A model generated the notes under the pieces. That model was not told the DNA's origin. It searched no databases and was given only the letters and a program-made list of their open reading frames with translations. A stretch of DNA of 33,680 nt from IMG/VR virus record IMGVR_UViG_2526164670_000016, positions 1 through 33,680 of that record. One strand, written 5' to 3'. A program made the position numbers and the translations under genes. Below are positions 30,680 to 33,680 of the stretch, in pieces (position 1 is the first letter of the stretch; the number at the start of each line of letters is the position of its first letter). This stretch comes from a virus (Duplodnaviria > Heunggongvirae > Uroviricota > Caudoviricetes).

Positions 30680-30745
30680 CGCTATGCCTGTGAAACTTTG
30701 GAGAGTGAATCAGGCATAACAATCACCAACACAGAAGGAGTTGTA

Positions 30746-31225
30746 ATGAAATTCAATGTATTTTTTAAAAAAGACCACGGATCACACTGGGTGCTTTCCG
30801 ATGGTGCCCCCCTCTTTGAAAGTCCACTATTTGAAACAAGACCTAAAGCCATTGATGACCTTGAGAACTTTGTAGGCCTTATGGAATCGCCAATCTTTAT
30901 TAAGGCTGGTGACGATATTAATTCTGGCGATACAGAAAACTGTCCATCTGTAGTTATTTCTTTAAAACAGCATGAATCGCTATGGGGCTGGGAATTATTT
31001 ATCTCAAAAAATGGACAACTGTCTAAAGTTACCGAAAGTTCAGGAAATGGCTTTGACTCATTAGAATTAGCAAAGCAAAATGCCCAGTTTTTCCTTAATG
31101 CCATTATCGACGCTCCTATTCTGGATCAAGCCGATGTCGCTATCCCCAGCATGCACTTCTCAAAATCTTTCGAGGAAACGCACCACATTGGTGACACTCA
31201 CCCATCTAGTAAATGGTTCAAATAA
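30746..31225 (+). CDS. YegP-like protein with two DUF1508-like repeats, 159 aa
   Basis: Strong RBS AAGGAG 6 nt before the ATG at 30746; two repeats (...HWVLSDGAPLFESPLFETRPKAIDDLENFV and ...WGWELFISKNGQLSKVTESSGNGFDSLELAKQNAQFF) resemble YegP from memory; low GC; opposite strand to the early operon. Confidence 0.5.
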   Translation: MKFNVFFKKDHGSHWVLSDGAPLFESPLFETRPKAIDDLENFVGLMESPIFIKAGDDINSGDTENCPSVVISLKQHESLWGWELFISKNGQLSKVTESSGNGFDSLELAKQNAQFFLNAIIDAPILDQADVAIPSMHFSKSFEETHHIGDTHPSSKWFK

Positions 31226-31229
31226 TCCA

Positions 31230-31586
31230 TCACTGTGGCGTTATCGTTTTTCTTGTGCGAGGTGGTACATCTCGCACGGTTTCTTCATCAACAATCAACT
31301 CATAAACTCTGATGCTGTTATCACCTTTTGATACGTCATCAAATACCTGAAAAAGAAAACTCATGAATTGCTCATAAGTGACGCTGGGTTCAACATACCC
31401 ACCTGTAACCTCAATTAATGGTGTTAGTCCTGAATTATCTGCTAACGAAACGCAGTCCAACTTATCCAAACGGAAAAAGTAATTACCGCAAGGTGTTCTT
31501 TTATCCTTAATCCGTATAAACACATTTGATAACGCTGTATGACTATCTGAGAGTTTAAAGATTTTTGCCGTGTCCATTTTATTCAA
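31230..31586 (-). CDS. Hypothetical protein, 118 aa, immediately downstream of cox
   Basis: AT-rich ORF in the position occupied by orf78 in P2; no family recognised. Confidence 0.35.
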   Translation of the reverse strand: MNKMDTAKIFKLSDSHTALSNVFIRIKDKRTPCGNYFFRLDKLDCVSLADNSGLTPLIEVTGGYVEPSVTYEQFMSFLFQVFDDVSKGDNSIRVYELIVDEETVRDVPPRTRKTITPQ

Positions 31587-31599
31587 CCCTGTAAGTTGC

Positions 31600-31875
31600 T
31601 TATGATGGATTGCCCAGACCCAACCACATTAACCACCCTTCCCTAATTTCCTTCGGGCGGCTCTCATACGCCATTTTCATGCCGTTGTTCCAGGCTGGAA
31701 GATAGACCCAGTACTCACCTGCCCGCCCGGAAGTTGATTGCGGATCGGTCATTTCAACTACAGGTAGCTTTCCTTTTTCAATCATCCCCTTCACCGCTGC
31801 CGGTGTTTTACCAATGAGTTTTGCGAACTCCTGATATGGGACGGCATCTGTGCTTAACGCGATCTGTTTAACCAT
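31600..31875 (-). CDS. cox: Cox (P2-type excisionase and transcriptional regulator), 91 aa
   Basis: Near-identical by memory to P2 Cox (...DAVPYQEFAKLIGK...GKLPVVEMTDPQSTSGRAGEYWVYLPAWNNG...AYESRPKEIREGWLMWLGLG); divergent from C. Confidence 0.85.
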   Translation of the reverse strand: MVKQIALSTDAVPYQEFAKLIGKTPAAVKGMIEKGKLPVVEMTDPQSTSGRAGEYWVYLPAWNNGMKMAYESRPKEIREGWLMWLGLGNPS

Positions 31876-31937
31876 TTAAGGCCCTCACAAGTTTAAGAAT
31901 CGTCACCAATGGCTTATAGTTGCTTTTGATGTTCATT

Positions 31938-31991
31938 TCTAAACATCAAACAGTCTACATCTAAATCAAATAGTATTGAGATCTAAACACC
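31938..31991. promoter_or_regulatory. Immunity switch region: three direct repeats of TCTAAA(C/T) spaced exactly 22 bp (starts 31938, 31960, 31982); candidate C-repressor operators overlapping the Pe/Pc promoters
   Basis: Direct repeats with two-helical-turn spacing in the cox-C intergenic region; P2 C is known to bind paired direct repeats flanking the early promoter -10. Confidence 0.45.
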
Positions 31992-32291
31992 ATGTCAAAC
32001 GCCTTAAACGAGAAAATTGTACTCATCAGAAAGTCTGAGTATCTCAGCAGACAGCAACTTGCTGATTTAACAGGCATTCCCTATGGCACTTTAAGTTATT
32101 ACGAAAGTGGTCGTTCTACACCGCCCACGGACGTAATGATGAGGATTTTGCAAATGCCCCAGTTCAGCAAATACACGTTGTGGTTTATGACCGATCAGGT
32201 TGCTCCCGAAGCCGGTCAGATAGCACCGGCCCTCGCACACTTTGGGCAAGATGTAACAACATCGCAGCACTCAGACCAAAAGATTGGTTAA
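31992..32291 (+). CDS. C: Immunity repressor C (P2-type), 99 aa
   Basis: Near-identical by memory to P2 C (MSN...EKIVL.RKSEYLSRQQLADLTG.PYGTLSYYESGRSTPPTDVMM); 99 aa as in P2; followed by int. Confidence 0.85.
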   Translation: MSNALNEKIVLIRKSEYLSRQQLADLTGIPYGTLSYYESGRSTPPTDVMMRILQMPQFSKYTLWFMTDQVAPEAGQIAPALAHFGQDVTTSQHSDQKIG

Positions 32292-32436: not shown

Positions 32437-33221
32437 ATGACAATTAAGAAACTCGATGATGGTCGTTATGAAGTGGATATCAGACCTGCAGGGCGCAACG
32501 GAAAGCGCATCCGCAGGAAATTTGACAAGAAAAGTGAGGCTGTAGCTTTTGAGAAACACACTCAATACAACCATCACGATAAAGAATGGCTAGCTAAACC
32601 GACAGATAAGCGGCATCTGTCTGAATTAACAAAAGTCTGGTGGGATCTGAAAGGCAAGCATGAAGAACACGGAAAATCCAATTTGGGTAAGATTGAAATC
32701 TTTACCCGGATCACTGATGACCCTTGCGCGTTCCAGATAACCAAAGCGCTTATTAGCCAGTACAGCATGACTCGCAGAGGGCAAGGCATAAAACCGGCCA
32801 GTATTAACCGCGACCTTACCTGCCTGAGTGGTATGTTTACTGCGCTAATTGATGCGGAACTGTTTTTTGGCGAACACCCTTTCAGAGGGATGAAAAAGCT
32901 CAAGGAGCAGAAACCAGAAACAGGCTATCTGACGCAGGAAGAAATAACATTGTTACTTGCCAATCTTGACGGGGACAACAAGAAAATCGCGATCCTCTGT
33001 TTAAGTACCGGCGCTCGATGGGGTGAAGCCGCGAAACTGAAAGCTGAGAACGTAATACAGAATCGGGTGACGTTCGTTAAAACAAAGACGAACAAACCGC
33101 GCACAGTCCCTATCTCTGAGGAAGTTGCTGTAATGATTGCGGGTAAAGGTTATCTGTTCCCTGATGCCTCATATCCGAAGTTCAGGCGAACAATGAAAGA
33201 TGTAAAACCAGATCTACCGAG
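32437..33221 (+). pseudogene. int: Tyrosine integrase (P2 Int-like), 3'-truncated by IS insertion; about 261 of an expected ~337 aa retained
   Basis: N-terminal 260 aa strongly resemble P2 Int from memory up to ...KDVKPDLPS; after about 33221 the frame reads unrelated sequence (LYIDLCNCLILICS...) into the IS; the C-terminal catalytic region is absent. Confidence 0.8.
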
Positions 33222-33680
33222 CCTGTACATAGATTTGTGTAATTGCCTGATTTTGATATGTTCAATCCAGCATCAAATGAAGGTTAATTTATGGACGAAA
33301 AACAGTTACAGGCTCTGGCTAACGAACTGGCCAAAAACCTCAAAACCCCTGAAGACCTCAGTCAGTTTGATCGGCTGCTGAAAAAACTCAGCGTTGAAGC
33401 CGCTCTCAATGCTGAGATGACACACCATCTTGGGTATGAGAAAAATCAGTCCAGACCAGGAGCTAACTCCCGCAACGGTTATTCCACAAAGACCGTTATC
33501 ACAGGCGACGGTCCACTGGAACTGCGTACTCCGCGCGATCGTGACGGTACCTTCGAACCGCAACTGGTAAAGAAAAATCAGACCCGTATTACCGGGATGG
33601 ATAACCAGATCCTGTCGTTGTATGCCAAAGGGATGACCACCCGTGAGATAGCTACTGCGTTCAAAGAACTGTATGACGCA
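33221..33680 (+). mobile_element. IS256-family insertion sequence (IS1414/IS285-like), left end and 5' part; continues beyond the window
   Basis: Transposase ORF begins at 33291, about 70 bp inside the inferred left end; the boundary is placed where the integrase homology stops (plus or minus 10 bp). Confidence 0.7.
33291..33680 (+). CDS. IS256-family transposase, N-terminal 130 aa (partial, runs off the window)
   Basis: MDEKQLQALANELAKNLKTPEDLSQFDRLLKKL...NSRNGYSTKTVITGDGPLELRTPRDRDGTFEPQLVKKNQTRITGMDNQILSLYAKGMTTREI is the typical IS256/Mutator-like transposase N-terminus; no stop before the window end. Confidence 0.8.
   Translation, partial: MDEKQLQALANELAKNLKTPEDLSQFDRLLKKLSVEAALNAEMTHHLGYEKNQSRPGANSRNGYSTKTVITGDGPLELRTPRDRDGTFEPQLVKKNQTRITGMDNQILSLYAKGMTTREIATAFKELYDA

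What the first reader, a model, noticed from the sequence alone, without database searches (positions are those of the whole stretch)
31876..31991. Immunity switch with three TCTAAA(C/T) direct repeats at exact 22-bp spacing
The cox-C intergenic region has three direct repeats starting at 31938, 31960 and 31982, two helical turns apart. This matches the known P2 arrangement in which C binds direct repeats flanking the early promoter. The third repeat abuts the C start codon, which could mean autoregulation.
Basis: partly seen in the sequence, partly recalled or inferred. Interest (0 to 1): 0.35.

Follow-up and report, generated by a model that had tools for sequence, protein, structure and literature searches.

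The report
P2-type immunity switch, extra operator repeat
This is the lysis/lysogeny control region of a P2-like prophage: two of the three repeats are the known binding sites of the P2 repressor, and the third is an extra in-phase copy that also forms the top of a conserved RNA hairpin, so most of the finding is ordinary with one modest new twist.

Summary
TCTAAAC, TCTAAAT and TCTAAAC start at 31938, 31960 and 31982, exactly 22 bp apart, in the 116-bp spacer between cox (31600-31875, -) and C (31992-32291, +). It is the only equally spaced 6-mer triple in the window.

The region is a P2-type Pe/Pc switch. C is 84% and Cox 80% identical to P2. The repeats at 31981-31988 and 31959-31966 correspond position for position to P2 O1 and O2 (GTTTAGAT on the Pe strand). 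They flank the Pe -10, and the Pe -35 overlaps the C start codon, as annotated in P2.

The repeat next to the C start is therefore O1, a Pe operator, not an autoregulatory site. The extra element is the distal repeat, 31937-31944 (7/8 match), at about Pc +10..+17. P2 has only a 6/8 match there. Four of five related lineages keep the core. Two other immunity classes carry a third copy of their own half-site at the same position.

The same DNA is the top of an 11-bp hairpin (31925-31950) in the early-transcript leader, and it shows compensatory changes, including in P2.

Best reading: a known kind of switch with a probable auxiliary third C site, which is unproven. int is cut by IS1414.

The parts
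31600..31875 (-). cox gene (91 aa): repressor of Pc and excisionase, first gene of the early operon
   Evidence: Pfam Phage_Cox E 5.9e-43; PHROG 272; 80% identical to P2 Cox
31992..32291 (+). C immunity repressor gene (99 aa)
   Evidence: 84% identical to P2 C over all 99 aa; HTH_3. R13, R20 and helix 3 (Y31-S39) plus R41 are identical to P2 (residues from PMC2995052)
31993..31998 (-). Pe -35 hexamer TTGACA, overlapping the C start codon
   Evidence: Promoter scan, 10/12 match. Same position as the annotated P2 Pe -35 (ungapped alignment)
31970..31975 (-). Pe -10 hexamer TACTAT; Pe +1 inferred at about 31962
   Evidence: annotated P2 Pe -10 at the aligned position. The +1 is transferred from P2 footprint and primer-extension numbering in PMC1904263
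31981..31988 (-). O1 half-site (GTTTAGAT on the Pe strand), in the Pe spacer
   Evidence: Identical to annotated P2 O1 at the aligned position. Invariant apart from a C/T change at the last base, the only change the pattern allowed
31959..31966 (-). O2 half-site (ATTTAGAT on the Pe strand, 7/8), covering Pe +1
   Evidence: Aligned with annotated P2 O2. In P2, single point mutations in one half-site are tolerated in vivo (PMC1904268)
31937..31944 (-). Third in-phase repeat, 'O3' (GTTTAGAA on the Pe strand, 7/8), at about Pc +10..+17 and Pe +19..+26; a candidate auxiliary C site
   Evidence: P2 has ATCCAAGC (6/8) here. The core YTAAAC is kept in 4 of 5 lineages. An analogous third site occurs in two other immunity classes. 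Binding was not tested
31925..31950 (-). Conserved hairpin: an 11-bp stem with a GAAA loop at nt 13-38 of the predicted early (Pe) transcript. On the + strand the same palindrome gives a 6-bp hairpin at the predicted 5' end of the C mRNA
   Evidence: dG -13.2 kcal/mol, z -3.7; P2 has -13.7, z -3.6 at the same position. Compensatory changes occur in 3 of 5 core pairs. 87% of cells are paired against 23-51% when the partner is slid, and 0/500 shuffles reach the score. No Rfam family
31915..31920 (+). Pc -10 hexamer TATAGT; Pc +1 inferred at about 31928
   Evidence: aligned with annotated P2 Pc -10 TATAAT. CTTATA lies at -79 from the C ATG in all five lineages. The +1 is inferred from the ~35-nt transcript overlap in P2 (PMC1904263)
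31893..31898 (+). Pc -35-like hexamer TTAAGA (weak)
   Evidence: Promoter scan, 9/12. The P2 record annotates its -35 two bases further right
31901..31935 (.). Presumed Cox-binding region over Pc (positions aligned with P2 cox-boxes)
   Evidence: P2 boxes at L001 587-595 and 606-614 match TTAAA(G/C)NC(A/C) at 8/8 and 7/8 (consensus from PMC3936717). By my own count from the sequence, the window matches only 4-6 of 8 at the aligned positions. Inferred, weak
32437..33219 (+). Integrase gene, truncated (equivalent to P2 Int residues 1-263 of 337)
   Evidence: tblastn with P2 Int: residues 1-263, 86% identity, ending at 33219; Pfam Int_N plus a partial catalytic domain
33219..33680 (.). IS1414 (IS256-like) insertion that interrupts int, running to the window end
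   Evidence: 100% identical to annotated IS1414 copies on E. coli plasmids

Best explanation
The cox-C spacer is the lysis/lysogeny switch of a P2-like prophage that uses the same repressor-operator code as phage P2.

Two promoters face each other. Pe (-35 at 31998-31993, -10 at 31975-31970, start about 31962) drives cox and the early genes leftward. Pc (-10 at 31915-31920, start about 31928) drives C and int rightward. The two transcripts overlap by about 35 nt.

C dimers bind cooperatively to direct 8-bp half-sites, GTTTAGAT on the Pe strand, spaced 22 bp apart on one face of the helix. O1 (31981-31988) lies between the Pe -35 and -10, and O2 (31959-31966) covers Pe +1. Occupying them shuts off Pe, which also relieves interference with Pc. 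This part is inferred from one-to-one correspondence with P2, where it has been shown experimentally.

The third repeat (31937-31944, 7/8 match, again exactly 22 bp on) is most likely an auxiliary half-site. It would let a third C dimer join the array. If each dimer protects about 12 nt beyond its half-site, as in the P2 footprint, the array would then reach roughly 31925 and cover Pc +1..+17. That would strengthen the down-regulation of Pc at high C concentration, much as OR3 does in lambda, and would add a roadblock just downstream of Pe. This step is inference and no binding has been shown.

The same DNA also encodes a conserved hairpin in the early-transcript leader, so the element probably serves two purposes.

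Sub-confidences: identity of the switch and of O1/O2, about 0.95; the third repeat binds C, about 0.6; it acts on Pc, about 0.4.
For: - Genes and layout.
- The alignment with P2 is ungapped from the Pc -10 to the C ATG. The annotated P2 O1, O2, Pe and Pc elements fall on the window motifs, and an independent promoter scan finds the same Pe and Pc hexamers.
- The published half-site is GTTTAGAT with 22-nt spacing (PMC1904263).
- All DNA-contacting residues of C are identical to P2, and the recognition helix is identical in all 219 related loci.
- The triple is the only one of its kind in the window.
- The third repeat resembles O1 over 11 nt. It is in phase and keeps the core YTAAAC in 4 of 5 lineages that share O1/O2. 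No within-lineage polymorphism falls in its 8 columns, against 15 extra alleles in the adjacent 14-column spacer.
- Comparative support: a heteroimmune class (C about 71% identical to the window's, helix VPYSSLTYYESGRT) has three phased TTAGAG-N6-YGA sites at -17, -36/-37 and -56/-57. The third is present in 33 of 38 distinct sequences, amid strongly diverged spacers and with no conserved hairpin.
- A sub-class with a changed helix (S33T) has TTAAAG...CTAGA at both site 1 and site 3.
- A third class has two direct copies and one inverted copy of ATAGGTGA, the inverted one at -58.
- In P2, C represses Pc at high concentration, and the footprint runs toward this region (PMC3448106; PMC1904263).
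Against: - P2, the only member studied experimentally, has two mismatches at the third position. Its reported footprint stops at about Pe +16, short of +19..+26 (PMC1904263).
- P2 C does not bind an isolated half-site.
- The third repeat lies inside a hairpin whose pairing is maintained by compensatory changes. One of P2's two substitutions in the repeat falls in the stem and is compensated in the opposite arm. Conservation of this stretch therefore does not require C binding.
- Conservation extends leftward into TGTTCA, so the block is not confined to the half-site.
- WPhi has no third copy.
- The five lineages are few and partly recombinant, for example L048.
- The promoter start sites in the window are transferred from P2, not measured.
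Confidence: 0.6

Rival explanations
1. The third repeat is not an operator. The stretch 31925-31950 is conserved because it encodes an RNA hairpin: in the 5' leader of the early (cox) transcript, and as a 5'-terminal stem-loop on the antisense C mRNA. The hairpin could affect mRNA stability, or pairing of the two overlapping transcripts. Its likeness to the C half-site would be a relic of an old 22-bp duplication, or coincidence.
For: - The stem is 11 bp at the same transcript position in the window and in P2 (dG -13.2 and -13.7 kcal/mol, z -3.7 and -3.6), although 7 stem positions differ.
- Three of the five core pairs show double compensatory changes. On the Pe strand all five core pairs are paired in all 20 distinct sequences, with G.U intermediates. 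No shuffle of 500 reaches the covariation score, and slid controls give 23-51% paired against 87%.
- One of P2's two departures from the half-site in this repeat falls in the stem and is compensated across it; the other lies in the loop.
- The P2 footprint does not reach this position.
Against: - A hairpin constraint does not explain why the arm and loop sequence matches the C half-site at 7/8, extends to 11 nt of similarity with O1, and sits exactly 22 bp from O2, in 4 of 5 lineages.
- Other immunity classes keep a third copy of their own half-site at this position without any conserved hairpin.
- The two functions are not mutually exclusive.
- The compensatory events are few, about four, and the sequences are closely related.
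Confidence: 0.27
2. The third repeat is a Cox-binding box at the edge of the cox-box array over Pc, rather than a C site.
For: - The C half-site plus its flank resembles the cox-box consensus TTAAA(G/C)NC(A/C). O1 plus flank, CTAAACACC, scores 7/8.
- By my count from the sequences, the third repeat plus flank scores 6/8 in the window and 8/8 (TTAAACACC) in lineage E.
- It lies next to the region aligned with the P2 cox-boxes (consensus from PMC3936717).
- At high concentration P2 Cox extends toward Pe.
Against: - It is only 6/8 in the window and was not reported by the 7/8 scan.
- Its orientation is opposite to the P2 Pc boxes, and it is not in the 10-11-bp register, which would put the next box start at about -52.
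- In the TTAGAG sub-class, site 3 changes together with site 1 and with the C helix, while the putative Cox array stays the same.
Confidence: 0.07
3. The third repeat is a chance or vestigial match with no function of its own.
For: - The region is AT-rich.
- P2 works with two half-sites.
- The repeat units look as if they arose by duplication: TCTAAA..TCAAA(C/T)AGT occurs twice.
Against: - The expected number of such equally spaced triples is 0.17 per whole window, and this one lies in the switch and matches the known half-site.
- No polymorphism is seen within lineages.
- A third site recurs in other classes.
- The stretch is at least under hairpin constraint.
Confidence: 0.06

Closest known systems
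Bacteriophage P2 Pe/Pc transcriptional switch (C repressor, Cox, operator half-sites O1 and O2)
   Same: - Same gene order (cox <- Pe/Pc -> C-int) and same 99-aa C and 91-aa Cox (84% and 80% identical).
- Same half-site sequence and 22-bp spacing.
- Same placement around the Pe -10, with the Pe -35 over the C start codon.
- Same Pc -10 position and the same leader hairpin.
   Different: - The region is only about 76% identical in DNA.
- O2 carries one mismatch (ATCTAAAT).
- The position 22 bp beyond O2 is a 7/8 half-site here (TTCTAAAC), against 6/8 in P2 (ATCCAAGC).
- The aligned cox-boxes are weaker.
- The genes downstream of cox differ (PHROG 10410 and 9021 instead of orf78 and B).
- int is cut by IS1414.
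Heteroimmune P2-like switches WPhi and P2 Hy dis
   Same: Small dimeric C repressors that read two direct repeats at the early promoter, with face-to-face Pe and Pc (PMC1904263, PMC1904268, PMC2995052).
   Different: - The half-site sequences differ. Spacing is 34 bp in WPhi and 2.5 turns in P2 Hy dis, and placement also differs.
- WPhi shows no third copy in its spacer.
Lambda OR1-OR2-OR3 tripartite operator (analogy only)
   Same: In both, a low-affinity or distal third site over the repressor's own promoter would give negative autoregulation at high repressor concentration, while the first two sites repress the lytic promoter.
   Different: - Lambda has palindromic sites, divergent promoters and an unrelated CI protein.
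- Here there are direct repeats and convergent promoters, and the role of the third site is untested.
Uncharacterised TTAGAG-type immunity class of P2-like prophages (L004, L253-L300)
   Same: Homologous C (about 71% identical to the window's C) and the same spacer geometry. There are three phased direct repeats of the class's own half-site, the third at the position equivalent to 31937-31944.
   Different: - The half-site is different (TTAGAG-N6-YGA) and the period is 20 bp rather than 22.
- There is no conserved hairpin.
- No cultured phage has a C protein more than 76% identical to it.

Membership tests
P2-type C/Cox lysis-lysogeny switch (Peduovirus) | A C-family HTH immunity repressor of about 99 aa | tested here: met
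   84% identity to P2 C over 99 aa; HTH_3; PHROG 147
P2-type C/Cox lysis-lysogeny switch (Peduovirus) | A Cox protein encoded divergently from C, as the first gene of the early operon | tested here: met
   Pfam Phage_Cox E 5.9e-43; 80% identity to P2 Cox; gene positions
P2-type C/Cox lysis-lysogeny switch (Peduovirus) | Face-to-face promoters Pe and Pc in the ~110-bp spacer, with overlapping transcripts | tested here: inconclusive
   Consensus hexamers are found on both strands at the positions annotated in P2. Start sites and the ~35-nt overlap are transferred from P2 (PMC1904263), not measured
P2-type C/Cox lysis-lysogeny switch (Peduovirus) | Non-palindromic direct-repeat half-sites at the early promoter | tested here: met
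   ATCTAAAC and ATCTAAAT lie 22 bp apart, flanking the Pe -10
P2-type C/Cox lysis-lysogeny switch (Peduovirus) | C binds the half-sites and represses Pe; Cox represses Pc | not testable with these tools
   Needs EMSA, footprinting and reporter assays
P2 immunity class (homoimmune with P2) | Same operator half-site sequence, spacing and placement as P2 | tested here: met
   O1 is identical and O2 is 7/8, at the aligned positions
P2 immunity class (homoimmune with P2) | Same DNA-specificity residues in C (Y31, T33, S35, Y36, Y37, E38, R41, R13, R20; PMC2995052) | tested here: met
   All are identical
P2 immunity class (homoimmune with P2) | At least 95% C identity within a class, as observed for the seven described classes (PMC3448106) | tested here: not met
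   The identity is 84%. The differences lie outside helix 3, mainly at the N-terminus and in the C-terminal half. By the functional definition (same binding site), membership is predicted but not shown
P2 immunity class (homoimmune with P2) | Mutual immunity in superinfection tests | not testable with these tools
   Needs plating of P2 on a lysogen or on a strain expressing this C
Tripartite operator with an autoregulatory third site (lambda-OR3-like logic) | A third repressor-binding site overlapping the repressor's own promoter or initial transcribed region | tested here: inconclusive
   A 7/8 in-phase half-site lies at predicted Pc +10..+17, and analogous sites occur in two other classes. 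However, the P2 footprint stops short of it, and the sequence is also under hairpin constraint

The most novel reading that the evidence does not exclude
C-family switches of the P2 geometry may really be three-site operators. The third site would lie over the first 10-20 nt transcribed from Pc, and P2, the model phage, would be a degenerate case. In the P2 immunity type, that third site is also built into a covarying hairpin. The hairpin sits in the roughly 35-nt stretch where the early and repressor transcripts are antisense to each other. This would add an RNA-level layer, through stability or antisense pairing, to a switch so far described only in terms of two proteins and two promoters.
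Probability: 0.4. Interest if true: 0.45.

Novelty: new member of a known kind. Interest (0 to 1): 0.3.

Why it matters
For annotation, the region can be labelled with confidence as a P2-type Pe/Pc switch, with O1 and O2 located to the base. The prophage is predicted to confer immunity against P2-type phages even though its integrase is broken.

For P2 biology, there are two small testable points. First, most relatives that share the P2 operator code carry a better third in-phase half-site than P2 itself. This could be the physical basis of the known but mechanistically vague negative autoregulation of C. Second, a hairpin with compensatory changes lies in the transcript-overlap region. I found no description of it in the papers I could read, and it has no Rfam family.

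Neither point changes the general picture of how such switches work.

Tried and rejected
- Motif enrichment: TCTAAAY is not enriched in the window (5 against 6.15 expected). Only the arrangement is unusual.
- Genome-contig scan with C: it returned only heteroimmune relatives (71% identity or less) and unrelated HTH proteins. These served as outgroups, not for operator conservation.
- Metagenome pattern scan: three hits (L216, L236, L241) were chance matches with no C gene and were excluded.
- Cox-box reading of the third repeat: the window matches are weak and out of register (and my own counts), so it is kept only as a minor rival.
- Hairpin as a general feature of the family: rejected. There is no conserved structure in the TTAGAG class, and z-scores are unremarkable in 12 of 13 other leaders.
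- Third half-site in WPhi: none in the spacer, so the three-site layout is not universal.
- Rfam: only a chance miRNA hit, E 3.2.
- Intrinsic terminator reading of the hairpin: by reading the sequence, no U-run follows it on either strand, and the scan reported only one terminator-like site, elsewhere, at 32035-32047.
- Papers not held, so their footprints and repeat maps could not be checked: Saha 1987 (PMC553466), Ljungquist 1984 (PMC345353) and Karlsson 2006 (PMC1482927).
- Within-lineage polymorphism as proof of a third site: it is suggestive only, because low polymorphism extends leftward to the Pc start as well.

Full report
**1. The observation**

The + strand reads ...TTCATTTCTAAACATCAAACAGTCTACATCTAAATCAAATAGTATTGAGATCTAAACACCATG.... 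TCTAAAC, TCTAAAT and TCTAAAC start at 31938, 31960 and 31982, with spacing of 22 and 22. They lie in the 116-bp spacer between an ORF on the - strand (31600-31875) and one on the + strand (31992-32291).

The 7-mer itself is not enriched in the window: 5 copies against 6.15 expected. The arrangement is what stands out. It is the only place in 33.7 kb where any exact 6-mer recurs three times at equal spacing of 8-40 bp. Dinucleotide shuffles give 0.17 such places per window.

**2. What the region is**

- The left ORF is Cox (Pfam Phage_Cox, E 6e-43). The right ORF is an HTH repressor.
- They are 80% and 84% identical to P2 Cox and C, with the same lengths of 91 and 99 aa.
- Downstream of C is a P2-type integrase.
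- BLAST against phage genomes finds P2 and relatives at about 76% DNA identity across cox, the spacer and C.
- The P2 GenBank record annotates Pe, Pc, O1 and O2. The window aligns with P2 without gaps from the Pc -10 to the C start codon, so the annotations transfer base for base (locus L001 coordinate + 31314).

The transferred positions are:

| Element | Window position | Sequence | Note |
|---|---|---|---|
| O1 | 31981-31988 | ATCTAAAC | identical to P2 |
| O2 | 31959-31966 | ATCTAAAT | 7/8 match |
| Pe -10 | 31970-31975 | TACTAT on the - strand | |
| Pe -35 | 31993-31998 | TTGACA on the - strand | overlaps the C ATG |
| Pc -10 | 31915-31920 | TATAGT | |

An independent consensus scan picks out exactly these Pe and Pc hexamers.

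The literature gives the P2 half-site as GTTTAGAT with a 22-nt centre-to-centre distance spanning the Pe -10 (PMC1904263; PMC2995052). This is the reverse complement of the window motif.

Residues proposed or shown to contact DNA (R13, R20, Y31, T33, S35, Y36, Y37, E38, R41; PMC2995052) are all identical in the window protein. They are also identical in all 219 related loci collected. The region is therefore a P2-type switch that uses the P2 repressor-operator code.

**3. Which repeat is which**

The P2 arrangement has two half-sites. They correspond to the window repeats at 31982 (O1) and 31960 (O2).

The repeat that abuts the C start codon is O1. It sits in the spacer of Pe, because the Pe -35 overlaps the C ATG. 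It is a Pe operator, so its closeness to the ATG says nothing about autoregulation.

The extra repeat is the distal one, TTCTAAAC at 31937-31944.

I used the P2 numbering in PMC1904263: the footprint extends about 12 nt beyond O2 to about Pe +16, and the transcripts overlap by about 35 nt. This puts Pe +1 at about 31962 and Pc +1 at about 31928. The third repeat then lies at Pe +19..+26 and Pc +10..+17. These start sites are inferred, not measured.

**4. Is the third repeat more than chance? Relatives with the same operator code**

Searches with the C protein in IMG/VR, with an O1-containing DNA pattern and with an O2-N14-O1-ATG pattern in metagenomes gave 219 loci. Three chance hits were removed.

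The loci fall into five spacer lineages, all ungapped relative to each other from the Pc -10 to the ATG. At the third position they read:

| Lineage | C identity to the window | Third-position sequence |
|---|---|---|
| window lineage | 100% | TTCTAAAC |
| second lineage | 86-89% | TTCTAAAC |
| third lineage | 93-95% | TACTAAAC |
| fourth lineage | 86% | TTTTAAAC |
| P2 itself | 84% | ATCCAAGC |

Four of the five lineages keep the core YTAAAC, and P2 is the outlier.

Within lineages there is no polymorphism in the eight third-repeat columns. The 14-column spacer toward O2 carries 15 extra alleles. However, low polymorphism continues leftward into TGTTCA and the Pc start, so this alone is not decisive.

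**5. Other immunity classes**

- *TTAGAG class.* This heteroimmune class has a C about 71% identical to the window's and recognition helix VPYSSLTYYESGRT. It has 38 distinct spacers. Its spacers are very diverged, yet there are three phased sites TTAGAG-N6-YGA at -17, -36/-37 and -56/-57 from the C start. The motif is present at site 1 in 38/38 sequences, at site 2 in 31/38 and at site 3 in 33/38.
- *A sub-class of it.* In three sequences with a changed helix (S33T), site 1 and site 3 both read TTAAAG..ATCTAGA, while the upstream AATG array is unchanged. This indicates that one protein reads both sites.
- *ATAGGTGA class.* Another class (L305, L306) has two direct copies of ATAGGTGA(T) 20 bp apart, and an inverted copy at -58.
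- *WPhi.* WPhi has a wider Pe-Pc distance and no third copy.

A third copy of the class-specific half-site at the position equivalent to 31937-31944 therefore recurs in three classes with the P2 spacer geometry. This is the main argument that the window's third repeat is a real C site.

**6. A second feature in the same DNA**

The repeat finder reported a perfect 9-bp inverted repeat, 31925-31933 / 31942-31950.

- On the - strand, the predicted early transcript, nt 13-38 fold into an 11-bp stem with a GAAA loop (dG -13.2 kcal/mol, z -3.7).
- P2 folds into an 11-bp stem at the same position (dG -13.7, z -3.6), although 7 stem positions differ.
- Across 20 distinct P2-type sequences, three of the five core pairs show double compensatory changes (AU/GC/UA, GC/AU, UA/CG).
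- On the Pe strand all five core pairs are paired in every sequence, with G.U intermediates. Overall 87% of cells are paired, against 23-51% when the partner is slid. No shuffle of 500 reaches the covariation score. The + strand is weaker.
- One of P2's two departures from the half-site in the third repeat falls in the stem and is compensated in the opposite arm (GTGTT -> GTGCC). The other lies in the loop.
- On the + strand the palindrome gives a short hairpin at the predicted 5' end of the C mRNA.

The hairpin matches no Rfam family. It is not conserved in the TTAGAG class or in most other classes.

The hairpin explains why this stretch is conserved, including in P2. It does not explain why the sequence is the C half-site, in phase, in four of five lineages.

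**7. Mechanism**

*Shown in P2 and transferred here by one-to-one correspondence.* C dimers bind O1 and O2 cooperatively and block Pe. Cox binds an array of boxes over Pc. C raises its own expression at low concentration and lowers it at high concentration (PMC3448106). The P2 authors attribute the latter to the closeness of bound C to RNA polymerase at Pc. Single mismatches in one half-site are tolerated in vivo (PMC1904268), so the O2 variant here should work.

*Inferred.* The third repeat lets a third dimer extend the array by 22 bp, over Pc +1..+17. This would sharpen negative autoregulation and add a block downstream of Pe. The hairpin may stabilise one or both transcripts, or promote pairing of the 35-nt antisense overlap.

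My estimates are about 0.95 for the identity of the switch and of O1/O2, about 0.6 that the third repeat binds C, and about 0.4 that it acts on Pc.

**8. Rivals**

- Hairpin-only constraint: 0.27.
- Cox box: 0.07. O1 plus its flank matches the cox-box consensus at 7/8. By my count the third repeat plus flank is 6/8 in the window and 8/8 in one lineage.
- Chance or relic: 0.06.

**9. Comparison and novelty**

This is a new member of a known kind.

Membership in the P2-type switch family is met on every sequence-testable feature. Membership in the P2 immunity class is predicted from the identical operator and recognition residues. However, the 84% C identity falls below the 95% or more seen within the described classes (PMC3448106), and immunity itself is untested.

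I found no description of the third in-phase half-site or of the covarying hairpin in the papers I could read. Three key older papers were not available, so earlier mention cannot be excluded.

**10. Context**

The integrase matches P2 Int only to residue 263. It is interrupted at about 33219 by IS1414, so the prophage is probably unable to excise, while its immunity region looks intact.

Noticed in passing
window 31925-31950 (both strands): A conserved hairpin with compensatory base changes. It lies in the predicted leader of the early (Pe) transcript, within the ~35-nt stretch antisense to the C mRNA. It is also present in P2, has no Rfam family, and I found no description of it in the papers I could read.
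   Followed up: yes
window 32437-33219 and 33219-33680: The integrase gene is cut after the equivalent of P2 Int residue 263 by an IS1414 (IS256-like) element that runs to the window end. The prophage is probably defective for excision, and the host is probably Escherichia.
   Followed up: partly
L004 1124-1200; L253-L300 about 320-400: An uncharacterised immunity class of P2-like prophages. Its recognition helix is VPYSSLTYYESGRT, and no cultured phage has a C protein more than 76% identical to it. It has three phased TTAGAG-N6-YGA sites at 20-bp spacing. A sub-class with helix change S33T reads TTAAAG at sites 1 and 3.
   Followed up: partly
L305 and L306, about 340-390: Another C class with two direct copies of ATAGGTGA(T) 20 bp apart, plus one inverted copy about 25 bp further toward Pc. 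This is a mixed direct/inverted three-site layout.
   Followed up: no
window 31983-31991; L001 669-677: The C half-site plus its 3' flank (CTAAACACC) matches the cox-box consensus TTAAA(G/C)NC(A/C) at 7 of 8 positions. C and Cox may therefore compete for partly similar sequences at Pe.
   Followed up: partly
window 31230-31586 (-) and 30698-31225 (+): Downstream of cox, where P2 has orf78 and B, there are two convergent ORFs of unknown function (PHROG 10410 and PHROG 9021). One lies on the strand opposite to the early operon.
   Followed up: no
window 31945-31954 and 31965-31974: A second direct repeat, ATCAAA(C/T)AGT, 20 bp apart, follows the third repeat and O2. The 22-bp units look like diverged tandem duplicates with a 2-nt shift.
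   Followed up: no
L308 270-300 (phage WPhi spacer): Direct repeats CTAGAAAGGAC and CTAGAAGGGAC lie 20 bp apart between O2 and Pc. They may be WPhi Cox boxes. A 9/10 copy of the WPhi half-site lies inside the C gene at L308 44-53.
   Followed up: no
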